Shown one piece after another: positions 5,443 through 63,854 of a stretch of 64,000 nt of DNA. How positions within the stretch are numbered: the first letter of the stretch is position 1; the number at the start of each line of letters is the position of its first letter. The stretch is from contig OY969584.1 in assembly GCA_963701285.1 (NCBI GenBank), forward strand, positions 2,263,709 to 2,327,708, read 5' to 3'. Source of the DNA: an uncultured Chloroflexia bacterium. GTDB taxonomy: Bacteria > Chloroflexota > Dehalococcoidia > SM23-28-2. Under the pieces are notes generated by a model that saw nothing but the letters and a program-made list of their open reading frames with translations, was not told the DNA's origin and did no database searches. The translations under genes were made by a program, and so were the position numbers.

Positions 5443-5508
5443 TCGCTCATGGTGAGCTTGTCGAACCATGAGGCCCCCGCCCACCCTTCGACAAGCTCAG
5501 GATGAGCG
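5443..5508. repeat. composite inverted-repeat intergenic element, copy 1 (unit approx TTCGACAAGCTCAsnATGAGCG, two inverted units)
   Basis: gctcatggtgagcttgtcgaaccatgag ... ccttcgacaagctcaggatgagcg. The same family recurs at 14863, 23401, 50995 and 52381. Confidence 0.8.
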
Positions 5509-5516
5509 TCCACGGG

Positions 5517-7373
5517 CTAGGCCTTGGCGCCGCCTTCGTCCAGGTCCAGCTTCAGGTGCAGCTCCCGGAGCTGCGCCTCGGAGACGGCCGACGGAGCCCC
5601 GAACATGGGGTCGGAGGCCGTCTTCGTCTTCGGGAAGGCGATCACCTCGCGAATGTCCCGCTCGCCGGCCAGGATCATCACTATCCGGTCGAGGCCCCAG
5701 GCTATGCCGCCGTGAGGCGGCGCGCCATACTCGAACGCCTCCAGCATGTGCCCGAATCGCTCCTGTGCCTCCTGGGGCGGGATGCGCAACAGGCCGAACA
5801 TCTTCTCCTGCACGTCGCGGCGGTGGATCCTGATGCTGCCGCCGGCGATCTCCCAGCCGTTGCAGACGATGTCATAGGCGCGGGCGCGCACGCGGCCGGG
5901 GTCGCTGTCCATCAGGGGCAGGTCCTCGTCCCTGGGCGAGGTGAAGGGGTGGTGAACCGCATCCCAGCGCTCCTCCCGCTCGTTCCACTCCACCAGAGGG
6001 AAGTCGGTGACCAGACCGAAGGCGAGCAGACCCTCGTCCGCCAGCTTGAGCTGGCGCGCCAGCTCCCGGCGCAGGGCGTCCAGCGCCTGACAGGCCCGGT
6101 ACTCTTCGTCCGCCACGAGGATCAGGAGGTCGCCACGCCGGGCGCCGGCCCGCTGGGCCATCGCCCGCACCTCCGCCACCGTCAGGTGGCGGTGCATAGG
6201 CGAGTGGAACTCCTCCTCCGTCAACGCCTCGATGGGCCCTTCGCCCAGCAGGCCGATGGAGATGAGTCCCTTCCCACCGACGCCCTCCACGAAGCGGGTC
6301 AGGTCGTCCACCTGGCGGCGGCTGAAGGCCGCGCCGCCGGCGGCGCAGATGGCGCGCACGACGCCGCCCCCGGCCAGCGTCTCGCGGAACACCGCGAACT
6401 CGGAGTCGCGCAGCAGGTCGGAAAAGTCGGCCAGTTCCATCCCGTAGCGCAGATCCGGCTTATCGGAGCCGAAGCGGCGCATCGCCTCGTCGTAGGTGAA
6501 GCGCGGGAAGGGTTTGGTGACGCGCAGGTCCGGCCGCACGTTTTCCGCCAGCGCCGAGAGCAGCCCCTCCATCAGATTCAGCATGTCCTCTTCGTTGATG
6601 AAGCTGATCTCCACGTCTAGCTGGGTGAACTCCGGCTGGCGGTCGGCCCGCAGGTCCTCGTCGCGGAAGCAACGGGCGATCTGGAAGTATCGCTCGAAGC
6701 CGGCCACCATCAGGAGCTGCTTGAGCTGCTGCGGCGACTGCGGCAGGGCGTAGAAGCAGCCGGGGTTGACGCGACTGGGCACCAGGTAGTCCCGGGCCCC
6801 CTCCGGCGTGCTCTTGATGAGAATGGGCGTCTCCACCTCGATGAACCCGTTGTCGCCCAGGAAATCGCGGATGAACTTCACCACCCGGGCTCGGAACCAC
6901 ATGTTCCGGTGCATGCGCTCGCGGCGCAGGTCGAGGTAGCGATAGCGTAGGCGCAGGAGGTCCTCCACCTCCGACTCCTCGTTGATGTAGAACGGGGGCG
7001 TCTTAGCGGGGTTGAGGATGGTAGCGCCGGCCGCCTGCACCTCCACCTCGCCGGTCGGCAGCGCGCGGTTCTCAGTGCCCGGCCGGCGGCGCGCCACCTT
7101 GCCTTTCACCTGCATTACGTACTCGGCCCGCACCTGGTCGGCGGTCGCGTAGGCCTCCTGGGCCTGCTTGGGGTTGAACACCACCTGGACGATGCCGTCG
7201 TTGTCGCGCAGGTCGACGAAAATGAGGGCGCCGTGGTCGCGGCGGCGGTGCACCCAACCCGCCAGGCTCACCTCCTCGCCCTCGTGGTCGGCGCGCAGCT
7301 CGCCGCAGCTGTGGGTCTTGTATGACGTCCTCATGGTCAAGCAGAGTTTCGCACGGGGTCTGGCGTGAGTCAA
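5517..7373 (-). CDS. aspS: aspartate--tRNA ligase (true start may be the internal ATG at 7334, MRTSYKTHSCGELR)
   Basis: 618-aa ORF with a class IIb aaRS anticodon-binding OB fold and catalytic motifs (FRDE, GGGIAWGLDR). Confidence 0.9.
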   Translation of the reverse strand: MTHARPRAKLCLTMRTSYKTHSCGELRADHEGEEVSLAGWVHRRRDHGALIFVDLRDNDGIVQVVFNPKQAQEAYATADQVRAEYVMQVKGKVARRRPGTENRALPTGEVEVQAAGATILNPAKTPPFYINEESEVEDLLRLRYRYLDLRRERMHRNMWFRARVVKFIRDFLGDNGFIEVETPILIKSTPEGARDYLVPSRVNPGCFYALPQSPQQLKQLLMVAGFERYFQIARCFRDEDLRADRQPEFTQLDVEISFINEEDMLNLMEGLLSALAENVRPDLRVTKPFPRFTYDEAMRRFGSDKPDLRYGMELADFSDLLRDSEFAVFRETLAGGGVVRAICAAGGAAFSRRQVDDLTRFVEGVGGKGLISIGLLGEGPIEALTEEEFHSPMHRHLTVAEVRAMAQRAGARRGDLLILVADEEYRACQALDALRRELARQLKLADEGLLAFGLVTDFPLVEWNEREERWDAVHHPFTSPRDEDLPLMDSDPGRVRARAYDIVCNGWEIAGGSIRIHRRDVQEKMFGLLRIPPQEAQERFGHMLEAFEYGAPPHGGIAWGLDRIVMILAGERDIREVIAFPKTKTASDPMFGAPSAVSEAQLRELHLKLDLDEGGAKA

Positions 7374-50994: not shown

Positions 50995-51124
50995 GATCGA
51001 GGTGCTCGTGGTGAGCTTGTCGAACCGTGAGCGCGGGATGGCGGCCGCCCTCGCCCGCTCGCCCTTCGACAGGCTCGGGGTGAGCGGGCAAGGTAGGGGC
51101 GCTCGGCCAAGCGCCCCTACCTTG
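50995..51124. repeat. composite inverted-repeat intergenic element, copy 4, plus an adjacent GC-rich hairpin
   Basis: gctcgtggtgagcttgtcgaaccgtgagcg ... ccttcgacaggctcggggtgagcggg, followed by ggtaggggcgct-cggccaa-gcgcccctacc (an 11-bp perfect stem at 51091-51124) after ftsZ. Confidence 0.8.
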
Positions 51125-51190
51125 CCCCCACGTTCTCGACAGACTATCGTGAGACTGAAGCCGCAGGCAGTTCCAGGGAGGAGGCACGCC

Positions 51191-52455: not shown

Positions 52456-52771
52456 GGCCTCCACAAGCGTGCCGCACCGGCGGCTGCACGGCCCTCACTG
52501 GCCCCCCACCGTCAGCCGGAAGTCGCGCGAACCCGACCAGCCGCTCACGACGCCACCCTCGAGGGTCGCGTTCCAGCTAAGGGTAACGGTACCCCCAGAG
52601 GGGCGCTGCTCACACTACACCGAGGTGCGGCTGCTCAAGACACCGGGCACTCTGGGGACGCAGCCCGGCCCCGGTTCAGCCCAAGATGGAGTACCGCGGG
52701 CGAATGGCGGGACCGGGGTGGTTCTTCGTCAGACGAGGACTGATCCGGCCAGCGGTATCTTTGCGGCCCGA

Positions 52772-53110
52772 TCAGCGCCGAACGGGGAGCGGTTGCTTCA
52801 CTTTCTTGGCCTGAACCGCTCTCAGAATCCGCACACCGGCTCTCTCGATGTCCTCCGCGTTCATCACTGGGACAATGTTAACGTTGGCCTTCATGTCCAG
52901 CCTTAGGGGCTCAGCGATCTCCGGCAGTTGCTCGGGCCTTTCTATGCTCAGAAACAAGTAGACGGTCCTCTGACCGTTGGCCGCGAAGAAGTAGACGCTC
53001 TCTGGCTCCACATCGCCCAGGTATCTCTGGATCTCCGGGAACAGGGAGCCGTCTAGAATGGCCGCATTCCCTACCTGGACGGGCATCTCAACCTGGACTA
53101 GAAGCCGCAT
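52772..53110 (-). CDS. hypothetical small alpha+beta protein (DUF3303-like or dimeric alpha/beta-barrel-like; family assignment uncertain)
   Basis: The ATG at 53110 gives MRLLVQVEMPVQVGNAAILDGSLFPEIQRYLG... (112 aa). GC is lower than the flanks. The longer 140-aa track ORF has an implausible N-terminus. Confidence 0.45.
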   Translation of the reverse strand: MRLLVQVEMPVQVGNAAILDGSLFPEIQRYLGDVEPESVYFFAANGQRTVYLFLSIERPEQLPEIAEPLRLDMKANVNIVPVMNAEDIERAGVRILRAVQAKKVKQPLPVRR

Positions 53111-53190
53111 GTCAGTCTCCTCTTCGCTTCTCCAAACAAGATACGCGGGACGCGGTCGTCTGGATTGGGTAGCCGAGCACCGAATTCTAG

Positions 53191-53243
53191 ACACAACATC
53201 TTGGGCCTAGACCCTTGACAAACCCAACATCTTGTGCTATCTT
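53191..53243 (+). promoter_or_regulatory. nrdR promoter (TTGACA-17-TATCTT) overlapped by two tandem NrdR-box-like palindromes
   Basis: acacaacatcttgggc at 53191-53206 and cccaacatcttgtgct at 53223-53238, with centres 32 bp apart as is typical for NrdR box pairs. TTGACA is at 53215-53220 and TATCTT at 53238-53243. Confidence 0.5.
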
Positions 53244-53293
53244 AACCTTCGCCCCCTCTGGGGCGACCGGACTGCTGGTTCCAAATTCTGTCC

Positions 53294-53923
53294 ATGAACT
53301 GCCCTTACTGTGGCTCCGAGGACTCCAAGGTCATAGACTCCCGCGCCAGCGAGGGCGGCATCCGCCGCCGCCGCCAGTGCCTGGCCTGCGGCCAGCGCTT
53401 CTCCACCATCGAGCGCACGGAGCTGGGCGTCCTCCTCGTCGCCAAGAAGGACGGCCGCCGCGAGGAGTTCTCCCGCGACAAGATCCTCCTCGGCGTCCGC
53501 CGGGCCTGCGAGAAGCGCCCCATCCCCCTCGGCGCGATTGAGGCCCTGGTGGACGACGTCGAGGCCCGCGTCCACGCCCTGGGCAAGGCCGAGGTGCCCA
53601 CCCGCTTCATCGGCGAGCTGGTCATGGAGCGCCTGCGCGAGCTGGACGACGTCGCCTACATCCGCTTCGCCAGCGTCTACCGCGCCTTCCGCGACGTAGA
53701 GGACCTGAAGGAGGAGCTGGCCGCCCTGGAGCGAGGCCGCACGCCGGCCACCTCCAGCCAGCAGCTGCCGCTGCTGCCCACCGAGGCCCTGGAGGGCGCG
53801 ACGCCCCGTCGACCGCGCCGACCGCGCCTTCGGGCGGTGCCGGGGATCCGCGAGCAAGAACCGAGAAGCAGCAGGTCAGCGCAGGAGACGAAAACGCAAG
53901 CGAGAACGGCCAAGGGAGCCTAG
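53294..53923 (+). CDS. nrdR: transcriptional repressor NrdR with an extended basic C-terminal tail
   Basis: MNCPYCGSEDSKVIDSR...CLACGQRFST zinc ribbon plus an ATP-cone (KKDGRREEFSRDKIL). It is 209 aa against the usual 150 or so; the extra 60 aa are Pro/Arg/Ser-rich. Confidence 0.9.
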   Translation: MNCPYCGSEDSKVIDSRASEGGIRRRRQCLACGQRFSTIERTELGVLLVAKKDGRREEFSRDKILLGVRRACEKRPIPLGAIEALVDDVEARVHALGKAEVPTRFIGELVMERLRELDDVAYIRFASVYRAFRDVEDLKEELAALERGRTPATSSQQLPLLPTEALEGATPRRPRRPRLRAVPGIREQEPRSSRSAQETKTQARTAKGA

Positions 53924-53949
53924 ATCGGACTGGGAAAGGAGACAGGTAG

Positions 53950-54108
53950 ATGGCCCGAAAGGTAACTAGTCCACGAGCAGCGAGCGCTGCCTCCAAGGTA
54001 CTCAGGAGTAAAAGCACAGGCGGCAAATCCAAGACTGCGGCCGGCAGCGCTCTGAGCCAGCGCGAGAAGCCAAAGGCCCCGCCCGCGAAGAGGCAAGCCA
54101 AAGGGTAG
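53950..54108 (+). CDS. small basic Lys/Ala/Ser-rich protein (52 aa), putative
   Basis: AGGAG RBS 9 nt upstream of the ATG. Sequence MARKVTSPRAASAASKVLRSKSTGGKSKTAAGSALSQREKPKAPPAKRQAKG. Absent from the 60-aa-or-longer ORF track. Confidence 0.35.
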   Translation: MARKVTSPRAASAASKVLRSKSTGGKSKTAAGSALSQREKPKAPPAKRQAKG

Positions 54109-54128
54109 ACGGAGGAGGTGAGACAAGG

Positions 54129-54347
54129 ATGCCAAGCCAGCACGTAGTGCCCCACGACGGCAAGTGGGCTGTGCGAGCCGAGGGCGCTGAACGAGCTACT
54201 TCAGTCCACGACACCCAGCGTGAGGCCATCGATGCGGCGCGCGAAATAGCGCGCAGACAAGGCACGGAACTGCTGATACACGGGGAGGACGGCAAGATCC
54301 GCGCGCGGGACAGCTACGGGCATGACCCGTTCCCTCCGAGGGGCTGA
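54129..54347 (+). CDS. DUF2188 family protein
   Basis: 72-aa ORF with a GGAGG RBS. The pattern HVVPHDGKWAVRAEGAERATSVHDTQREAIDAAREIARRQGTELLIHGEDGKIRARDSYGHDPFPP matches DUF2188. Confidence 0.7.
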   Translation: MPSQHVVPHDGKWAVRAEGAERATSVHDTQREAIDAAREIARRQGTELLIHGEDGKIRARDSYGHDPFPPRG

Positions 54348-54503
54348 GAACGCAGGAGAGCGCACCAGCCAACGGCAGTGCCCGGCGAGGGCAGTGTCGC
54401 GATGGACGACCGAATGAGATACGAACGATAGGGGGGCGGCACGTGAGTGAAACAGCCGCGATGCTTGGGACGCAACCAGGCCGCCCTGTGATGGGAGGAT
54501 GAC

Positions 54504-54962
54504 ATGACGCAGCACTCAATCTCAGACCGGCTCGGCACTTTGATGAGACAGCGAAGCCTGAGCGTGGGGGCACTAGCGGAATCGACGGACGTTCCGGAGC
54601 TCACGATCGACGCCATCCTTGACGGGAGCATCGCCAAGCCCCCGCCTTACGTCGTGAGCTTCCTCGCGGGGGCGCTCGGCGTGTCAACTGTCTGGCTGGC
54701 GAAGGGTGTCGATCCAAAGAGGGACCAAACGGTTCGCGCCGACGTCGACGAGTGGCGCTACGAGTCCGCAGATCAATATCGGCACTTCTGCGAAGACCAT
54801 CATATCCACTGGAAGGACATCCGGGTGCTCTGGGAATTCGCCTTTGGCCGAGCCAGCGCGCGAGGGAAGGCCATCTCGTACAATGCGTGGAGCGTACTCT
54901 ACCGGGAGTGCTTTCGGCGCGGACCGGAGCAGCGACCACGCTCTCTGTTCACCAGCGTCTAG
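54504..54962 (+). CDS. XRE-family HTH transcriptional regulator with a C-terminal extension (DdrO/ImmR-like)
   Basis: HTH_XRE at the N-terminus (RLGTLMRQRSLSVGALAESTDVPELTIDAILDG) plus a roughly 80-aa C-terminal domain. GGGAGG RBS. It lies immediately upstream of a COG2856 metallopeptidase gene. Confidence 0.7.
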   Translation: MTQHSISDRLGTLMRQRSLSVGALAESTDVPELTIDAILDGSIAKPPPYVVSFLAGALGVSTVWLAKGVDPKRDQTVRADVDEWRYESADQYRHFCEDHHIHWKDIRVLWEFAFGRASARGKAISYNAWSVLYRECFRRGPEQRPRSLFTSV

Positions 54963-54976
54963 TAGATAGGTGGGCA

Positions 54977-55831
54977 GTGTCACCTAAGGGCCATTCCACC
55001 AAACGAGCGGTGAGGAATGCAGTCTCGAAACTTCTCGCGCGCGCGGGTATTCGGGAGGCGCCCGTCGACCTCTGCCGCGTAGCGCGGGTGCAGGGGGTCC
55101 TCCGCATCGAGGACGCCGACCTAGGAAACGTGGACGCCTGCATTATACCGTGCGAAGGAGGATTCGCCATCAAGGTCAACCGAGACGCGCCCGAGCGGCG
55201 GCGCCGGTTCTCCCTCGCGCACGAGATCGGCCACACTCTTCTCAAAGACGCGCCCACCGGCTGCAAGTACAGACACCTGACGACTAGAGCCAACGTGCGC
55301 CGCCCCGCCAATCACCGGCGGGAGGAGAGAATCTGTGACTTCGCCGCAGCTGAGATCCTCATGCCGGAGTCACTGTTCCGCCCCTGGCTTGCGGGAAGGG
55401 CGATGTCAATCCGTGCGATAGAGGCCGCTGCTACCCACTTCGAAGTCTCCAGGCAAGCGGCGGCAATTCGCCTGGCCGAGTCGTCCGAAGCGCCCGCCGA
55501 GGTAGTCTGCTGGAAGCCCCGGGGTTCAGTGCTAGAAGCCGCGTGGTTCAGCGGATTCAGGCACTTTAGCCAGTACGCCTCGCAGGACGAAATGTCGCGG
55601 GCGTTCACCGACCTCGAATCGGCCCCCGTCCGCGCACTTTGGTCGTCGCGGACAGCAATCAGCAACGACGAGCCGGTCCGGGCCGAGGGCAGGGGGCCCA
55701 AGTTCTACTGCGAGTCTAAGGCCTTCGGCACGGGAGAGCACCGCTACGTGCTGTCGGTGATAAAGGAACGTCTGACACCAAAGCAGTTCGAAGGCCTTAT
55801 GACAGTCATGGCACACCGCCTCGGCGGCTGA
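54977..55831 (+). CDS. ImmA/IrrE family (COG2856, DUF955) zinc metallopeptidase
   Basis: GTG start 15 nt after the XRE stop, with an AGGTGG RBS. HEIGH (HExxH) lies about 80 residues in, with a downstream ICDFAAAEILMPESLF motif typical of ImmA/IrrE. Length of about 284 aa matches Deinococcus IrrE. The track ORF at 54752 reads in from upstream. Confidence 0.7.
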   Translation: MSPKGHSTKRAVRNAVSKLLARAGIREAPVDLCRVARVQGVLRIEDADLGNVDACIIPCEGGFAIKVNRDAPERRRRFSLAHEIGHTLLKDAPTGCKYRHLTTRANVRRPANHRREERICDFAAAEILMPESLFRPWLAGRAMSIRAIEAAATHFEVSRQAAAIRLAESSEAPAEVVCWKPRGSVLEAAWFSGFRHFSQYASQDEMSRAFTDLESAPVRALWSSRTAISNDEPVRAEGRGPKFYCESKAFGTGEHRYVLSVIKERLTPKQFEGLMTVMAHRLGG

Positions 55832-55860
55832 CGCCGCCGTTAGAAGGGAGACGACCCGTC

Positions 55861-58236
55861 ATGACCACGACCTCCGACCGCCGCCTCGTGGAGAAGCGCC
55901 ACCGCCGGCCCATCGAGTTCTCGCCCAACGCCCACGTCGTCCTGGAGCGCCGCTACCTGGCCAAGGACGACCAGGGGGCACCCGCCGAGTCGCCCGAAGA
56001 CCTCATCGCCCGCGTGGCCTACAACCTGGCCGAGGCGGAGCTCAACTACAAGCCCCTGGAGGACTTCGACGCCGCCTCCCAGTGGGGAGAGCGCTTCTAC
56101 GAGCTCATGGCCGCGCTCGACTTCCTACCGAACTCGCCCACCCTCATGAACGCCGGCCGCGAGCTCCAGCAGCTCGCCGCCTGCTTCGTGATCCCCGTCT
56201 CCGACTCCATCGACGGCATCTTCGACGCCCTCAAGGCCGCCGCCCTCATCCATAAGTCCGGCGGCGGCACCGGCTTCGGCTTCAGCCGCCTGCGCCCCGA
56301 GGGCGACCGCGTCCAGTCGACCATGGGCATCGCCTCCGGGCCGGTCTCCTTCATGAAGGTGTTCGACGCCGCCACCGAGCAGATCAAGCAGGGCGGCACC
56401 CGTCGCGGCGCCAACATGGCCATCCTCTCCGTCAGTCACCCCGACATCGAGGACTTCATCGACCTCAAAGCCGACATGACCAGCCTCACCAACTTCAACA
56501 TCTCCGTGGGGGCCAGCGAGGCCTTCATGGAGGCGGTGAAGCACGAGCGCGACTGGCCGCTGGTTAACCCCCGCTCCGGCGAGGTGGCCCGCAAGGTCTC
56601 GGCCCGCGTCCTCTTCCGCAAGATCGTGGAGAACGCCTGGCGCAACGGCGACCCCGGCCTCGTCTTCCTCGACCGCATGAACCGCGCCCACACCTGCCCC
56701 AACCTGGGGGAGATCGAGGCCACCAACCCCTGCGGCGAGGTGCCCCTACCGCCCTGGGGCGTCTGTACCCTCGGCTCCATCAACCTCTCCCATTTCGTCG
56801 TCGGCGACGGCCAGAAGAAGGTCGATTTCGACCGCCTGGCCCAGCTGGTGCCGCTGGCCGTCCGCTTCCTAGACAACGTCATCGACATGAACCGCTATCC
56901 GCTGTCCCAGATCCGCGATACCGCCCAGAAGGCTCGCAAGATCGGCCTGGGGGTCATGGGTTTCGCCGACATGCTCTTCCAGCTGCGCATCCCCTATGCT
57001 TCCGACGAGGCGCTGAAGGTGGGCGAGGCCGTCATGCGCTTCATCCAGCAGAAGGCCAACGAGGCCTCGTTGGCCCTGGGCGAGGAGCGCGGCGTCTTCC
57101 CTGCCTGGGAAGGCTCCGTCTATGACCCCACCACCGGCGACCCTCGCAGCGGGCCTCGCTACCGCAACTCCAGCCGCACCACCATCGCCCCCACCGGCAC
57201 CATCTCCATCATCGCCGACTGCTCCTCGGGCATCGAGCCGCTGTTCGCGCTGGCCTTCACCCGCCAGCACTTCCTCGACCCCAAGGACCCCTCAAAGCTC
57301 ACCCAGCTCACCGAGGTCAACCGGCACTTCCTCCAGGTGGCCAAGGAGGAAGGCTTCTACTCGGAGGAGCTCATGGAGTACCTGGCGGGCGGCGGCAAGG
57401 TATCCGAGCGGCCGGAGGTGCCCCAGTGGGTGAAGGACGTCTTCGTGACCGCCCACGACATCTCCCCCGAGTGGCACGTGCGCATGCAGGGCGCCTTCCA
57501 GAAGCACACCGACGACGCCGTCTCCAAGACCATCAACTTCCCCATCGAGGCCACGGTGGACGACGTGGGCAAGGCCTACTGGCTGGCCTACGAGCTGGGG
57601 TGCAAGGGCATCACCATCTACCGCGAGGGCTCCCGCGACTGGTCCGTCCTCTCCCACGCCGTGGTCAACGTGAAGGGCCCCGAGCAGGAGCCGGAGGCCG
57701 TGGTCACCGAGACCGTGGGCGCGGTGCGCCCCGGCCCCTATCGCCGCCGCCTCCCCGACGAGCGCCAGTCCATCACCCACAAGTTCGCCGTGGGCGAGCA
57801 GGAGGGCTACCTGACCGTCGGCCTCTACGAGGACGGCCGGCCGGGGGAGATCTTCGTCAAGATCGCCAAGGAGGGCTCCACCGTCTCCGGCCTCATGGAC
57901 TCCGTGGCCCTGCTGACCTCCGTCTCCATGCAGTACGGCGTGCCGCTGGAGGACCTGGCCCGCAAGCTGAAGAACACCCGCTTCGAGCCCTACGGCCGCA
58001 CCAACAACAAGAGTATCCCCTGGTCCACGTCGCTGGTGGACTACATCTTCCGCTGGCTGGAGCTGAAGTTCGTGCCGGGGGCCGCCCACAGCCACGACCC
58101 GCTGCCCAAGTACGAGAACGGGATGCCCGTCTCGCCCGATAGCTCCGGCCTGGGCTGCCCGGACTGCGGCAGCATCCTGATCTACCAGGAGGGCTGCCTC
58201 GTCTGCCGGGCCTGTGGGTACAACAAGTGCGGATAG
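55861..58236 (+). CDS. nrdJ: adenosylcobalamin-dependent ribonucleoside-diphosphate reductase (class II, NrdJ)
   Basis: 791-aa ORF with class II RNR motifs (PTLMNAG, NPCGEVPLPPWGVCTLGSINLS, radical Cys loop) and a C-terminal CPDCGS...CLVCRACG zinc ribbon. Confidence 0.9.
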   Translation: MTTTSDRRLVEKRHRRPIEFSPNAHVVLERRYLAKDDQGAPAESPEDLIARVAYNLAEAELNYKPLEDFDAASQWGERFYELMAALDFLPNSPTLMNAGRELQQLAACFVIPVSDSIDGIFDALKAAALIHKSGGGTGFGFSRLRPEGDRVQSTMGIASGPVSFMKVFDAATEQIKQGGTRRGANMAILSVSHPDIEDFIDLKADMTSLTNFNISVGASEAFMEAVKHERDWPLVNPRSGEVARKVSARVLFRKIVENAWRNGDPGLVFLDRMNRAHTCPNLGEIEATNPCGEVPLPPWGVCTLGSINLSHFVVGDGQKKVDFDRLAQLVPLAVRFLDNVIDMNRYPLSQIRDTAQKARKIGLGVMGFADMLFQLRIPYASDEALKVGEAVMRFIQQKANEASLALGEERGVFPAWEGSVYDPTTGDPRSGPRYRNSSRTTIAPTGTISIIADCSSGIEPLFALAFTRQHFLDPKDPSKLTQLTEVNRHFLQVAKEEGFYSEELMEYLAGGGKVSERPEVPQWVKDVFVTAHDISPEWHVRMQGAFQKHTDDAVSKTINFPIEATVDDVGKAYWLAYELGCKGITIYREGSRDWSVLSHAVVNVKGPEQEPEAVVTETVGAVRPGPYRRRLPDERQSITHKFAVGEQEGYLTVGLYEDGRPGEIFVKIAKEGSTVSGLMDSVALLTSVSMQYGVPLEDLARKLKNTRFEPYGRTNNKSIPWSTSLVDYIFRWLELKFVPGAAHSHDPLPKYENGMPVSPDSSGLGCPDCGSILIYQEGCLVCRACGYNKCG

Positions 58237-58284: not shown

Positions 58285-58842
58285 ATGCAGGACAAGGTCG
58301 CGTACATCAAGTTCTTTGCTGGTGTGGATCAGACGTCTATCAGCGCGCTCATGACGGCCGTTGAGCACAAACTGGCCCAGGGCGCCAGGGAGTTCGTCCT
58401 GCTCATATCATCGCCCGGCGGCACCGTGTTCCACGGGCTCTCTGCTTACAACTTCCTCAAGGGCATCCCCGCCAGGGTTACGACCCACAACTTCGGGAGC
58501 GTAGACTCCATCGGTGTCGTCCTGTTCTGCTCCGGCGCCCGCCGGTTCAGTGTGCCCCACGCGAGGTTTCTGTTGCACGGTGTCCAGGCGAACTTCCCCC
58601 AGGGAGCCAGCCTGGAGGAGAAACAACTCGAGGAGCGCCTGAAAGGCCTCAGGATCGACAGTGAGAACATAGCAGGAGTAATCGCCGCCAACACCGGGAA
58701 GTCAGAGGAATCCGTAACCGAGGACATGCTGAGCAGGACGACACTGAACCCCGAGCAGGCGGTCGCCTACGGCCTGGTGCACGAGATCAAGGAGCAGCTG
58801 CTGCCCGCAGGCGCCGAGCTAGTATCCATCGGTCAGGGGTAG
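58285..58842 (+). CDS. ClpP/S14-family (ClpP-like, crotonase-fold) serine peptidase homologue
   Basis: LISSPGGTVFHG (compare ClpP INSPGG), Ser in GSVDSIG, His in RFLLHGV and a C-terminal LNPEQAVAYGLVHEI (compare ClpP EAveYGLID). 185 aa with GC slightly below the flanks. Confidence 0.6.
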   Translation: MQDKVAYIKFFAGVDQTSISALMTAVEHKLAQGAREFVLLISSPGGTVFHGLSAYNFLKGIPARVTTHNFGSVDSIGVVLFCSGARRFSVPHARFLLHGVQANFPQGASLEEKQLEERLKGLRIDSENIAGVIAANTGKSEESVTEDMLSRTTLNPEQAVAYGLVHEIKEQLLPAGAELVSIGQG

Positions 58843-59056
58843 CTAGGAGTCATCGCCATAACCTATACGACGATTCCTTCACCACCTACCGGAAGAGGTA
58901 CACCAGGGGCCGGGTCCGCCCTCGCGCCCCACCACCCGCAGCGCCTGACGCCCGCCGCCCCCTACGACCCTCCGCCCCCGCCCCCACGCACCGCCCACCC
59001 TCTTCGCCCCGCCGCGTCCACCCCCGCGCCGCATCAATTGACACCCGCATAGCGTG

Positions 59057-59084
59057 GTTTTATTATGTAAATGAGCGGCGGTGC
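59057..59084 (+). promoter_or_regulatory. sigma70-like promoter (TTGACA-16-TATTAT) for the small membrane protein gene
   Basis: aaTTGACAcccgcatagcgtggtttTATTATgtaaat in an AT-enriched patch. Confidence 0.5.
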
Positions 59085-59104
59085 GACAAGCCCCCGCCAA
59101 AAAT

Positions 59105-59138
59105 GACGAGCGGCGGTCTGCCGGCCTACCGCCGCTCG
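59105..59138 (+). other. 12-bp perfect hairpin in the 5' leader (possible attenuator or RNA structure)
   Basis: acgagcggcggt-ctgccggcct-accgccgctcgt followed by a pyrimidine-rich guucuucccuu. It sits about 40 nt after the predicted TSS and 80 nt before the start codon. Confidence 0.4.
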
Positions 59139-59219
59139 TGTTCTTCCCTTCGCCACCAGCGAAGCGCTGACAACCTCCCGCCCGCGCCATACGATAGACC
59201 CCGGAGGCCTGCGCCCGCC

Positions 59220-59444
59220 ATGTACCCATCCGGCAACCGCCCGTCCCTCTGGACCGAGTTCTGGCTCCTCACCCGCGCCGTCTACGCCATCCTCTTCTGG
59301 CCGGTGCTGGCGCTGGTCGCCCTGATCCTGGGCCTGCTGGCCTTTTTCTACCTATTCGCCACCTATTGGGCCTTCGCCCTCCTGGCCGCGGGCGCCTTCG
59401 CCCTGGCCGCGGGCGCCTTCGCCTGGTGGGAGCGCCGCCGTTGA
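59220..59444 (+). CDS. small 2-TM membrane protein with an in-frame perfect 21-bp tandem duplication
   Basis: GGAGG RBS 12 nt upstream. MYPSGNRPSLWTEFWLLTRAVYAILFWPVLALVALILGLLAFFYLFATYWAFALLAAGAFALAAGAFAWWERRR. The unit ctggccgcgggcgccttcgcc occurs at 59382-59402 and 59403-59423. Confidence 0.55.
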   Translation: MYPSGNRPSLWTEFWLLTRAVYAILFWPVLALVALILGLLAFFYLFATYWAFALLAAGAFALAAGAFAWWERRR

Positions 59445-63724: not shown

Positions 63725-63825
63725 TGTTTTGCTCCTCCCGCGCACACTTAATAGGGACAACCGTGCCCCATCTTACAACCGGCGGTCAAGCGGGCGAGAT
63801 GCCATTCCACGTGCCACCAAAACAC

Positions 63826-63854
63826 TTGTTTTCCTTTTGCCCCCGTGCTATGAT
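63826..63854 (+). promoter_or_regulatory. sigma70-like promoter (TTGTTT-17-TATGAT) upstream of recA
   Basis: acacTTGTTTtccttttgcccccgtgcTATGATgcg, about 45 nt upstream of the recA N-terminal codons. Confidence 0.45.

What the first reader, a model, noticed from the sequence alone, without database searches (positions are those of the whole stretch)
54504..55831. DdrO/IrrE-like (XRE + COG2856 metalloprotease) pair inserted between nrdR and the class II RNR gene, about 8 kb from recA
An XRE HTH protein of 152 aa has an 80-aa C-terminal domain. The next gene starts 15 nt downstream and encodes a roughly 284-aa ImmA/IrrE-type peptidase, with HEIGH about 80 residues from the N-terminus and the downstream E-containing helix. 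The size and motif positions match Deinococcus IrrE (281-328 aa), which cleaves the XRE repressor DdrO after DNA damage.

The pair is embedded in nrdR, small basic ORF, DUF2188, [pair], nrdJ, ClpP-like. nrdJ is a classic damage-inducible locus, and recA is at the window end. This may be a LexA-independent DNA-damage regulatory switch, or an ImmR/ImmA-type module left by a mobile element. The segment 53925-55860 has lower GC than nrdR and nrdJ.
Basis: partly seen in the sequence, partly recalled or inferred. Interest (0 to 1): 0.6.

Follow-up and report, generated by a model that had tools for sequence, protein, structure and literature searches.

The report
IrrE-like protease switch inside RNR operon
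Between the repressor gene nrdR and the B12-dependent ribonucleotide reductase gene nrdJ sits a small helix-turn-helix protein and an IrrE/CapP-type zinc protease, a pair whose relatives lie beside DNA-precursor genes in many Chloroflexota, so it may link a DNA-damage signal to dNTP supply.

Summary
54504-54962 encodes a 152-aa XRE-type HTH protein. 54977-55831 encodes a 284-aa M78 peptidase with H82-E83-x-x-H86 and E117. Profile and predicted fold match Deinococcus IrrE/PprI over the full length, including the GAF-like C-terminal domain that ImmA lacks.

The main new result is context. Of 38 species-level genomes with a full-length homologue, 36 have it next to nrdR/nrdJ and one next to thyX. 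M78 and NrdR divergence are correlated (Spearman 0.74). The NrdR boxes and the only clear promoter lie upstream of nrdR, and gene spacers are short, so the pair appears to be co-transcribed with nrdJ.

The cassette is accessory. Relatives with 83-96% identical NrdR have nrdR followed directly by nrdJ, and homology breaks at 53844 and resumes at 55841. No integrase, tRNA or viral relative was found.

Best reading: a locally acting, probably ssDNA-stimulated protease/repressor switch added to NrdR control of dNTP-synthesis genes. The fold and the synteny are shown; the signal, the cleavage and the DNA target are inferred. No operator was found, and no motif is shared with recA. The C-terminal half of the XRE protein shows no detectable DdrO similarity. 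A global DdrO-like regulon and a prophage remnant are both disfavoured. This is a new variant of a known kind.

The parts
53191..53206 (+). NrdR box 1 (ACACAACATCTTGGGC)
   Evidence: It is one of only two 12/16 matches to the NrdR-box consensus in the 64 kb window. The two are in tandem with 31-nt start-to-start spacing. The same box arrangement is seen in relative L003.
53215..53243 (+). Sigma-70-like promoter TTGACA-17-TATCTT (TG-extended) upstream of nrdR, enclosing NrdR box 2 (53222-53237, ACCCAACATCTTGTGC)
   Evidence: Promoter scan gives 10/12. Sequence read. A TTGACA + box + -10 + box architecture recurs upstream of nrdR in most Dehalococcoidia loci.
53294..53923 (+). nrdR (209 aa; Zn ribbon + ATP-cone + long C-terminal tail)
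   Evidence: Pfam PF22811 and PF03477. NCBIfam TIGR00244 at E=6e-53. The tail beyond residue ~183 is specific to cassette-bearing relatives.
53844..55840 (.). About 2.0 kb accessory segment (end of the nrdR tail, basic ORF, DUF2188, XRE, M78) that is absent from close relatives
   Evidence: blastn against L101 and L103-L106 shows homology breaking at window ~53844 and resuming at 55841. GC3 is lower in this segment.
53950..54108 (+). 52-aa Lys/Ala/Ser-rich basic protein, no family hit
   Evidence: ORF. No Pfam, NCBIfam or PADLOC hit. Homologues lie next to XRE-M78 pairs in L090, L100, L115 and, divergently, in Armatimonadota L063.
54129..54347 (+). DUF2188 protein (72 aa)
   Evidence: Pfam PF09954 at E=1.6e-28. 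PADLOC candidate PDC-S16 at E=1e-38. A DUF2188 gene also lies beside M78 homologues in L051 and L058. The association of DUF2188 with CapH/CapP-like pairs is reported in 10.1101/2022.04.27.489752.
54430..54503 (+). Conserved non-coding block directly upstream of the XRE start (GGGNGGCGGC…AGTGAA…ATGCTTGGGACGC…GCCGCCC…GGAGGA)
   Evidence: Nearly invariant among window, L090 and L091 although the flanking coding sequence diverges. Absent in L112 and L115. No covariation and an unremarkable fold, z=-0.64. Function unknown; it is a candidate operator or internal promoter.
54504..54962 (+). XRE-type HTH protein (152 aa): HTH at residues 5-67, helical C-terminal half at 71-152
   Evidence: Orthologues are 50-62% identical and carry an extra C-terminal CxxC…CxxC ribbon that is missing here.
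54941..54946 (+). (CT)3 run; loss of one CT fuses XRE and M78 into one 441-aa ORF in another sample
   Evidence: L100/P0064 is 99.92% identical over 2504 nt, with this 2-nt gap as the only difference.
54977..55831 (+). IrrE/CapP-type M78 metallopeptidase (284 aa): peptidase domain (R75, H82, E83, H86, E117), helical middle region, GAF/PAS-like C-terminal domain (~174-265)
   Evidence: Pfam. Invariant columns. PDB profile hits IrrE 8slm/3dte and CapP 7t5t. AF2 model with pLDDT 86.8. Foldseek top hits are PprI/IrrE, CapP and the Mtb regulator 6cyy (my identification of 6cyy as PrpR is from memory, not checked). PADLOC capP at E=1.4e-33.
55861..58236 (+). nrdJ, class II (B12-dependent) ribonucleotide reductase; starts 29 nt after the M78 stop
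   Evidence: Pfam. NCBIfam NF006417 at E=1e-300.
58285..58842 (+). ClpP-family protein (185 aa), probably the last gene of the transcription unit
   Evidence: Pfam CLP_protease at E=1e-23. Below the NCBIfam ClpP cut-offs. Conserved after nrdJ in cassette-less relative L101 (83%) but not in other loci.

Best explanation
The pair is an accessory two-protein proteolytic switch of the IrrE/DdrO-CapP/CapH kind. It sits inside the NrdR-controlled nrdR-nrdJ operon.

**Proposed mechanism (inferred by analogy, not shown)**
- The 152-aa XRE protein is a dimeric DNA-binding repressor.
- The 284-aa zinc peptidase is kept quiet until a signal is sensed in the groove between its peptidase and GAF-like domains. 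The signal is most likely single-stranded DNA from stalled replication or damage.
- The peptidase then cleaves the C-terminal half of the XRE protein and relieves repression.
- CapH/CapP and ImmR/ImmA act on the operon beside them, and this subfamily sits almost only beside nrdJ or thyX. The most likely output is therefore expression of the dNTP-synthesis genes it is co-transcribed with. That would add a replication-stress input to the ATP/dATP input of NrdR.

**Shown**
- Gene structures, catalytic motif, full-length IrrE-like fold and NrdR boxes plus promoter upstream of nrdR.
- Tight operon spacing, phylum-wide synteny with nrd/thyX, co-divergence with NrdR, and presence/absence polymorphism.

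**Inferred**
- ssDNA as the signal, cleavage of the XRE protein, the DNA target, and the direction of the effect on nrdJ.
For: **Identity**
- PF06114 at E=3.8e-14.
- H82, E83, H86 and E117 are invariant in 30 homologues.
- The family profile hits IrrE/PprI 8slm at 3.8e-19 and 3dte at 1.3e-18 across profile positions 47-268, and CapP 7t5t at 3e-14.
- The AF2 model has pLDDT 86.8 and pTM 0.84.
- Its best PDB matches are PprI+ssDNA 8sln (E=2.7e-12, TM 0.63/0.73), IrrE 3dti and CapP. The C-terminal domain also matches LOV/PAS/GAF folds.
- PADLOC capP scores E=1.4e-33.

**Possible ssDNA-contact residues**
- Window R75 aligns with IrrE R85 (D. geothermalis numbering), which equals R75 in D. deserti.
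- The R of RYVLS (R256) aligns with IrrE R267 (alignment; residues named in 10.64898/2026.05.16.725639 and PMC12828697).
- The literature reports that ssDNA stimulation needs the GAF-like domain and was not seen for ImmA and Rir, which lack it (PMC12828697, PMC10904395).

**Partner**
- The HTH resembles the 434 repressor and the CapH N-terminal domain (7t5u, E=0.0018 with a profile).
- A small gene lies directly upstream of M78 in the 45 partner-bearing loci examined. In 16 of those 45 it has a detectable XRE HTH.

**Link to dNTP genes**
- 36 of 38 GTDB species loci with a full-length homologue are adjacent to nrdR/nrdJ.
- One of the two exceptions (L064), plus three further loci, are HTH-M78-thyX.
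- Planctomycetota locus L051 has DUF2188-ORF-M78-class II RNR.
- Pairwise identity of M78 against adjacent NrdR gives Spearman 0.74, with 0 of 2000 Mantel permutations reaching it.

**One operon**
- Tandem NrdR boxes and a promoter lie only upstream of nrdR.
- No promoter-like site and no + strand terminator-like site was found between nrdR and 59330.
- M78-to-nrdJ spacing is 29 nt here, -4 nt in L001 and 18 nt in L007. nrdR-to-HTH spacing in other loci is 0-90 nt.

**Not a phage or ICE remnant**
- Flanks are dcw genes, nrd genes and recA, with no tRNA.
- Only 7 weak, N-terminal-only relatives occur in 2.9 million viral contigs.
Against: - No operator was found. There is no conserved palindrome beyond the NrdR boxes upstream of nrdR.
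- The conserved 75-nt block upstream of the XRE gene is limited to the nearest relatives.
- In one layout the pair lies downstream of nrdJ, so it cannot simply gate read-through.
- The XRE C-terminal half has no detectable similarity to DdrO or CapH C-terminal domains and was modelled at pLDDT <50. A cleavage site cannot be named.
- The XRE Pfam hits are below curated cut-offs.
- The cassette is dispensable: relatives with 83-96% identical NrdR lack it, and other relatives carry unrelated cargo at the same site.
- Lower GC3, the DUF2188 match to PADLOC defence candidate PDC-S16, and an HNH gene in L001-L006 give the cassette a defence-islet flavour.
- Nothing here shows that nrdJ expression changes with damage.
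Confidence: 0.5

Rival explanations
1. It is a global, LexA-independent DNA-damage regulator like DdrO/IrrE. The XRE protein represses a dispersed regulon (recA, repair genes, nrdJ), and the peptidase removes it after damage. Its position in the nrd operon is incidental or only sets its expression level.
For: - Full-length IrrE-like fold and conserved catalytic and basic residues.
- recA lies 8 kb away with its own palindrome AAAACACTTGTTTT over the -35 region and no Cheo-type LexA box.
- Co-transcription with an NrdR-controlled operon would raise the pair when dNTPs are low.
Against: - The recA palindrome occurs nowhere near nrdR, XRE or nrdJ.
- No RDRM-like site lies near these genes (the motif was recalled from memory).
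- The cassette is missing from relatives with 83-96% identical NrdR, which is unlikely for a master regulator.
- In Deinococcus irrE and ddrO are not adjacent and not nrd-linked (established knowledge). Here linkage to nrd/thyX is 37 of 38.
Confidence: 0.1
2. It is a small defence or conflict cassette (basic ORF, DUF2188, CapH/CapP-like regulator). The nrdR-nrdJ spacer is only a permissive integration hot spot. The pair regulates DUF2188 or itself, not nrdJ.
For: - The cassette is an indel relative to close relatives and has lower GC3.
- The spacer holds other cargo in L108 and L113, and an HNH gene in L001-L006.
- DUF2188 matches PADLOC candidate PDC-S16 at E=1e-38, and M78 matches capP at E=1.4e-33.
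- DUF2188 operons with CapH/CapP-like genes are described as putative defence systems (10.1101/2022.04.27.489752).
- More distant M78 homologues sit by transposases (L049), a DNA methylase (L046) and kinase+PurA-like fusions (L082, L088).
Against: - In Dehalococcoidia the module is only HTH+M78, with no DUF2188 or effector, tightly packed between nrdR and nrdJ.
- The subfamily is almost never found elsewhere.
- It co-diverges with NrdR.
- A second dNTP gene, thyX, is the neighbour in four loci. A neutral hot spot does not predict that.
Confidence: 0.2
3. It is an ImmR/ImmA-type immunity module left behind by a decayed prophage or ICE.
For: - XRE plus M78 gene order, lower G+C and accessory distribution.
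Against: - No integrase, tRNA or flanking repeats, and core-gene flanks.
- The peptidase has the GAF-like domain that ImmA (169 aa) lacks (PMC12828697).
- No full-length relative occurs in IMG/VR.
- The same site is occupied across a phylum, with co-divergence.
Confidence: 0.05
4. The peptidase acts on something other than the XRE protein, for example NrdR itself. Or its GAF-like domain senses a nucleotide rather than ssDNA. Either way the module would be a metabolite- or repressor-directed protease for dNTP homeostasis.
For: - It is encoded in the same operon as NrdR, beside nrdJ or thyX.
- GAF domains commonly bind nucleotides (general knowledge).
- NrdR carries a lineage-specific C-terminal tail whose end differs between cassette-bearing and cassette-less relatives.
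Against: - An HTH partner always accompanies the peptidase, as in every characterised system. In one sample the two are even fused.
- thyX-linked loci have no nrdR and no NrdR boxes nearby.
- No direct evidence for either idea.
Confidence: 0.1

Closest known systems
Deinococcus IrrE (PprI) / DdrO
   Same: - M78 zinc peptidase with HExxH+E, a helical middle region and a GAF-like C-terminal domain.
- Similar length, and identical numbering of R75, H82, E83 and H86 with D. deserti IrrE.
- Best sequence-profile and fold match.
- The partner is a small XRE HTH protein with a helical C-terminal half.
   Different: - Here the two genes are adjacent and embedded in an NrdR-controlled nrdR-nrdJ operon.
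- No RDRM-like operator or dispersed regulon is seen.
- The XRE C-terminal half has no detectable DdrO similarity, and orthologues carry a Zn-ribbon tail.
- The cassette is dispensable among close relatives.
- The phylum is Chloroflexota, not Deinococcota.
CapP / CapH (regulators of CBASS and other defence operons)
   Same: - An adjacent HTH + M78-GAF pair acting, in the known cases, on the neighbouring operon.
- PADLOC capP at E=1.4e-33 and a CapH N-terminal-domain hit at E=0.0018.
- DUF2188 neighbours, as reported for some CapH/CapP-like pairs.
- A flexible loop between HExxH and the third zinc ligand, which in the window's clade holds a Cys (G95-C96), recalling the cysteine-switch loop.
- Natural HTH-peptidase fusions exist in both.
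   Different: - Known CapH/CapP genes lie upstream of, and divergent from, a defence operon. Here the pair is co-directional and internal to a housekeeping operon (nrdJ or thyX).
- The CapP match covers only the N-terminal ~180 residues by sequence.
- The Cys is absent in the Dehalococcoidia members.
ImmA / ImmR (ICEBs1, phage phi105) and Rir/Crh
   Same: XRE repressor plus COG2856/M78 anti-repressor protease encoded side by side.
   Different: - ImmA and Rir are short (169 and 122 aa), lack the GAF-like domain and were not ssDNA-stimulated (PMC12828697).
- They reside on mobile elements. Here there is no mobile-element context.
nrdR-nrdJ operons autoregulated by NrdR (e.g. Streptomyces nrdRJ; knowledge from literature, not re-read here)
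   Same: nrdR is co-transcribed with nrdJ from a promoter overlapped by tandem NrdR boxes 31 nt apart.
   Different: Four extra genes, including a protease/repressor pair, lie between nrdR and nrdJ. I found no paper describing this.

Membership tests
Peptidase M78 / COG2856 (ImmA/IrrE superfamily) | PF06114 match above the curated threshold, with HExxH and a downstream Glu zinc ligand | tested here: met
   53 bits against a cut-off of 22. H82, E83, H86 and E117 are invariant in 30 homologues.
IrrE/CapP subgroup (three-domain, ssDNA-stimulated) | C-terminal GAF-like domain following a helical HTH-like middle region, with full-length similarity to IrrE | tested here: met
   Profile alignment to 8slm and 3dte runs through residues ~65-281. 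Foldseek gives PprI/IrrE over ~269 columns at TM 0.60-0.73, and the C-terminal domain hits LOV/PAS/GAF folds.
IrrE/CapP subgroup (three-domain, ssDNA-stimulated) | Basic residues lining the inter-domain ssDNA groove (IrrE R85, R207, R267 in D. geothermalis numbering) | tested here: inconclusive
   R75 aligns with R85 and R256 aligns with R267, and both are conserved. The R207 equivalent is not conserved in the alignment. No coordinates or complex model were available.
IrrE/CapP subgroup (three-domain, ssDNA-stimulated) | Cleavage of the partner HTH repressor, stimulated by ssDNA | not testable with these tools
   Biochemical assay needed.
DdrO family | N-terminal XRE HTH domain | tested here: met
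   434-repressor match at E=0.007, or 3e-4 with a profile. Confident five-helix model of residues 5-67. Pfam HTH hits are below cut-off.
DdrO family | C-terminal dimerisation domain homologous to DdrO, with the L106-R107-type cleavage site | tested here: not met
   DdrO 6jq1 appears only at E=0.9, and only over the HTH (residues 5-82). Nothing matches residues 83-152. The C-terminal model has pLDDT <50, so fold-level similarity remains untested.
DdrO family | Binds a palindromic operator (RDRM) upstream of recA and other repair genes | tested here: not met
   No RDRM-like site or shared palindrome near recA, nrdR, XRE or nrdJ within the window. A genome-wide test was not possible.
CapH/CapP regulators | Pair located upstream of, and divergent from, a defence operon | tested here: not met
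   The pair is co-directional with and internal to nrdR-nrdJ. The neighbours are RNR or ThyX genes in 50 of the 80 GTDB-species loci.
ImmR/ImmA of mobile elements | Short single-domain peptidase inside a prophage or ICE with an integrase | tested here: not met
   The protein is 284 aa with a GAF-like domain. No integrase or tRNA. No full-length viral relatives.
NrdR regulon operon | Tandem 16-bp NrdR boxes about 31 bp apart overlapping the promoter | tested here: met
   Boxes at 53191-53206 and 53222-53237 flank or overlap TTGACA-17-TATCTT. They are the only such matches in the window.

The most novel reading that the evidence does not exclude
The nrd/thyX-linked subfamily is a dedicated dNTP-homeostasis sensor. 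Its GAF-like domain would read a replication-stress or deoxynucleotide-related signal (ssDNA, or a nucleotide ligand). Its protease would inactivate a repressor (the XRE partner, or even NrdR). Chloroflexota would then have a proteolytic, SOS-independent route from stalled replication to RNR and thymidylate-synthase expression, layered on NrdR. This would be the first housekeeping metabolic target for an IrrE/CapP-type switch.
Probability: 0.3. Interest if true: 0.75.

Novelty: new variant of a known kind. Interest (0 to 1): 0.6.

Why it matters
IrrE/DdrO and CapP/CapH show that a zinc protease can turn ssDNA into transcriptional derepression. So far this is known only for Deinococcus repair genes and for phage-defence operons.

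A subfamily tied to ribonucleotide reductase and thymidylate synthase genes would extend the logic to dNTP supply. It would also give a concrete candidate for damage or replication-stress control of RNR in Chloroflexota, a phylum whose regulators are little studied.

NrdR is regarded as the master RNR regulator. This module would add a second, independent input within the same operon. Natural variants with and without the cassette, and a split/fused variant, would serve as ready-made comparisons.

Tried and rejected
- **Exact look-ups.** The two window proteins and P0001 were not on record for contigs.
- **RNA elements.** Rfam found nothing in the window or six loci except tRNAs elsewhere. The conserved 75-nt block upstream of the XRE gene gave no covariation and z=-0.64. 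A small uORF in it is not conserved in frame (read). It is absent in L112 and L115.
- **Operator hunting.** This covered inverted and direct repeats at 52700-56000, nrdR upstream regions of ~35 loci, a window against L003 comparison, the nrdR-HTH spacers and the thyX-type upstream regions. Only the NrdR boxes and promoter are conserved.
- **Motifs shared with recA.** Searches for the Cheo box GAAC-N4-GTTC, the recA palindrome and an RDRM-like pattern found nothing near nrd.
- **M78-nrdJ gap in Dehalococcoidia.** The apparent ~325-nt gap turned out to be an N-terminal extension of NrdJ, so the true spacing is ~18 nt.
- **XRE protein.** The homologue search found only two relatives. The model of the C-terminal half was too poor for a fold search.
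- **AFDB Foldseek.** The library was unavailable.
- **Burroughs & Aravind 2020.** The paper was not held.
- **NrdR boxes at thyX loci.** None were found upstream of the thyX-type loci.
Full report
**1. Checking the observation**

54504-54962 (ATG, 152 aa) is preceded by GGGAGGA. 54977-55831 (GTG, 284 aa) is preceded by AGGTGGG and starts 14-15 nt after the first gene's stop. The public annotation of a 2.66 Mb contig has exactly these products, P0063 and P0001.

The second protein matches Peptidase_M78 (PF06114, E=3.8e-14, above threshold). It carries H82-E83-I-G-H86 and E117.

The first protein is only a sub-threshold Pfam HTH (E=0.005-0.024). It aligns with the phage 434 repressor (E=0.007 alone, 3e-4 as a four-sequence profile). 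Its residues 5-67 model confidently as five helices.

The neighbourhood is as described. nrdR is at 53294-53923, a 52-aa basic ORF at 53950-54108, DUF2188 at 54129-54347, nrdJ at 55861-58236 and a ClpP-family gene at 58285-58842. The start of recA is at the window end.

Third-position GC is 0.66-0.77 in the four inserted genes, against 0.91 in nrdR and 0.96 in nrdJ.

**2. What the peptidase is**

A profile of 30 homologues hits Deinococcus IrrE/PprI best: 8slm at 3.8e-19 and 3dte at 1.3e-18. The alignment runs from the peptidase domain to the end of the C-terminal domain. CapP (7t5t) follows, over the N-terminal part only.

The AlphaFold model (pLDDT 86.8, pTM 0.84) has these best PDB matches:
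- PprI bound to ssDNA (8sln, E=2.7e-12, TM 0.63/0.73)
- IrrE (3dti, 3dte)
- CapP
- a Mycobacterium tuberculosis transcriptional regulator (6cyy and related entries; I recall these as PrpR, an identification I did not check)

Its C-terminal domain alone matches LOV/PAS/GAF domains. PADLOC's capP model scores E=1.4e-33.

R75, H82, E83 and H86 have the same numbers as in D. deserti IrrE (PMC12828697). R75 and R256 (in RYVLS) align with the IrrE ssDNA-contact residues R85 and R267 in D. geothermalis numbering. The alignment is, and the residues are named in 10.64898/2026.05.16.725639.

The literature reports that ssDNA stimulation requires the GAF-like domain. It was not seen for ImmA and Rir, which lack that domain (PMC10904395). 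By architecture, the protein therefore belongs with IrrE/CapP and not with ImmA.

Residues 92-108 are modelled at low confidence. They lie where CapP has its cysteine-switch loop. In the window's clade the loop holds a Cys (…APTGC…), but not in Dehalococcoidia. This is a resemblance only.

**3. What the partner is**

The XRE protein has few detectable relatives, 50-62% identical. Those relatives end in a CxxC…CxxC ribbon that the window protein lacks.

With a profile, the HTH also resembles the CapH N-terminal domain (7t5u, E=0.0018). DdrO (6jq1) appears only at E=0.9, and only over the HTH. Residues 71-152 are predicted helical but at pLDDT <50.

It is untested by fold.

Across 45 partner-bearing loci, a small gene lies directly upstream of the peptidase. 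These genes are very diverse, and 16 have a detectable XRE HTH, the best at E=2.7e-12.

**4. The context is the main finding**

Homologues 55-76% identical lie in the same order as in the window: nrdR, (HNH or basic ORF + DUF2188), HTH, M78, nrdJ. Homologues about 33% identical in Dehalococcoidia MAGs lie in ftsA-ftsZ-nrdR-small gene-M78-nrdJ.

I scanned one genome per GTDB species with the family alignment, then ran tblastn with the window proteins. Counts for the 80 retained loci:

| Homologue type | Loci | Beside nrdR/nrdJ | Layout |
|---|---|---|---|
| Full-length | 38 | 36 | 27 M78→nrdJ, 6 nrdJ→M78, 3 with nrdR only |
| N-terminal match only | 42 | 10 | not broken down |

The unlinked N-terminal-only loci were mostly Proteobacteria.
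- One of the two full-length exceptions, L064, plus L078, L085 and L037, have HTH-M78 followed directly by a ThyX gene (Thy1, E=6e-42).
- The other exception, L049, is flanked by transposases.
- A Planctomycetota locus, L051, has DUF2188-ORF-M78-class II RNR.
- Pairwise identities of M78 and the adjacent NrdR correlate across 35 loci: Spearman 0.74, with 0 of 2000 Mantel permutations reaching it. This indicates long co-inheritance.
- About 430 clusters at 50% identity match the family profile at E≤1e-30.

**5. Operon structure**

The only two 12/16 matches to the NrdR-box consensus in 64 kb are tandem, 31 nt apart. They lie at 53191-53206 and 53222-53237 and bracket TTGACA-17-TATCTT upstream of nrdR. 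The same promoter-plus-boxes layout recurs upstream of nrdR in L003 and in most Dehalococcoidia loci.

No other promoter-like site and no + strand terminator-like site was found before 59330. Spacers are short:
- M78-to-nrdJ: 29 nt here, -4 nt in L001, 18 nt in L007
- nrdR-to-HTH in other loci: 0-90 nt

I infer that the pair is co-transcribed with nrdJ under NrdR control.

**6. The cassette is accessory**

I searched metagenomes with NrdR. Relatives with 83-96% identical NrdR and ~93% identical NrdJ (L101, L103-L106) have nrdR followed directly by nrdJ. Homology to the window stops at 53844 and resumes at 55841.

- L110 and L111 also lack the cassette.
- L108 and L113 hold unrelated ORFs there.
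- L112 and L115 have the pair.
- L090 has the cassette and L101 lacks it, yet both are about equally distant from the window in the flanks.

So the cassette has been lost repeatedly, or exchanged through the flanking genes. The context shows no integrase or tRNA. Viral contigs hold only seven weak, N-terminal-only relatives.

**7. Mechanism**

The best-supported explanation is a locally acting protease/repressor switch of the IrrE/CapP kind. It would add a replication-stress or DNA-damage input, probably ssDNA, to NrdR's nucleotide input on dNTP-synthesis genes.

The weak points are these:
- No operator could be found.
- The conserved 75-nt block upstream of the XRE gene is confined to the nearest relatives and has no structural signal.
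- In one layout the pair lies downstream of nrdJ.
- Cleavage and signal are inferred by analogy.

A global DdrO-like regulon is disfavoured, because the cassette is dispensable and recA shares no motif with it.

A defence-type cassette using the spacer as a hot spot remains a real rival. Points for it:
- DUF2188 matches PADLOC defence candidate PDC-S16.
- An HNH gene sits in the cassette in L001-L006.
- GC3 is lower.
- The literature links DUF2188 with CapH/CapP-like pairs.

It does not explain the effector-less HTH+M78 modules of Dehalococcoidia or the thyX neighbours.

**8. Novelty**

Full-text searches found no description of an XRE/M78 pair in nrdR-nrdJ or thyX operons. The combinations tried were COG2856 with ribonucleotide reductase; IrrE, DdrO and Chloroflexi; nrdR, nrdJ and IrrE; and DUF2188.

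I rate it a new variant of a known kind. The components and the likely chemistry are known. The embedding in, and apparent dedication to, dNTP-synthesis operons is new.

Noticed in passing
window 54941-54946; L100:1287-1290: A contig from another sample (ERR12035932) is 99.92% identical over 2504 nt. Its only difference is the loss of one CT from a (CT)3 run. That fuses the XRE and M78 genes into a single 441-aa ORF (P0064). It could be a real split/fused polymorphism or a sequencing error.
   Followed up: partly
window 54430-54503: A ~75-nt non-coding block just upstream of the XRE start is nearly invariant in window, L090 and L091, although the neighbouring coding sequence diverges. It has an inverted repeat GGCGGC…GCCGCC, no covariation and no unusual folding energy. 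It is absent in L112 and L115.
   Followed up: partly
window 63819-63832: A perfect palindrome AAAACA-CT-TGTTTT overlaps the -35 region of a likely recA promoter (TTGTTT-17-TATGAT, with TG). No Cheo-type LexA box is present. This is a candidate operator for an unknown recA regulator, and it is found nowhere else in the window.
   Followed up: partly
L064:5995-8363, L078:5983-8354, L085, L037: In four Dehalococcoidia genomes the HTH-M78 pair is followed directly, with overlapping stop/start in L064 and L078, by a long (509-514 aa) ThyX-domain protein instead of nrdJ. No NrdR boxes are nearby.
   Followed up: partly
L040, L047, L048, L083, L159 (nrdJ): The tblastn match to NrdJ is split at residue 291 by about 1.1 kb of extra in-frame-looking sequence. 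This suggests an intein at a conserved site.
   Followed up: no
L007:10856-11180: Dehalococcoidia NrdJ carries a ~110-aa N-terminal extension (MSSNQRGKGNSRAHVDRSRVARAIF…) that gene callers treat inconsistently (846 aa against 737 aa). It may be a degenerate ATP-cone-like region.
   Followed up: no
window 53844-53923; L090:1-261; L101: NrdR here is 209 aa with a ~60-aa basic, low-complexity C-terminal tail. The last ~25 residues differ between cassette-bearing relatives (ending …AKGA) and cassette-less ones.
   Followed up: partly
window 5484, 14900, 23404, 51062 (and palindromes at 51013-51127): A dispersed repeat of the CCCTTCGACAAGCTCAGG type occurs at four or more sites, against 0.06 expected. 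Palindromic REP-like elements lie between ftsZ and the M24 peptidase gene and create spurious ORFs.
   Followed up: partly
L082:7309-8916, L088:7190-8648: More distant M78 homologues in an Actinomycetota MAG and an archaeal MAG are followed by a nucleotide-kinase domain fused to an adenylosuccinate-synthetase-like domain. This is another nucleotide-metabolism-type neighbour.
   Followed up: no
L063:5179-5325 (-), 5475-6876: A homologue of the 52-aa basic protein (MARGKVTSAGAASAASKVLKSGSTGK…) lies divergently next to an XRE-M78 pair in an Armatimonadota MAG, followed by a 1062-aa helicase-like gene. The small basic protein therefore travels with such pairs outside the nrd context.
   Followed up: no
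window 59038-59066: This is the strongest promoter-like site in the region (TTGACA-17-TATTAT, 11/12). It lies upstream of a 113-aa hydrophobic ORF (59103-59444) with no family match, and marks the likely end of the nrd transcription unit.
   Followed up: no
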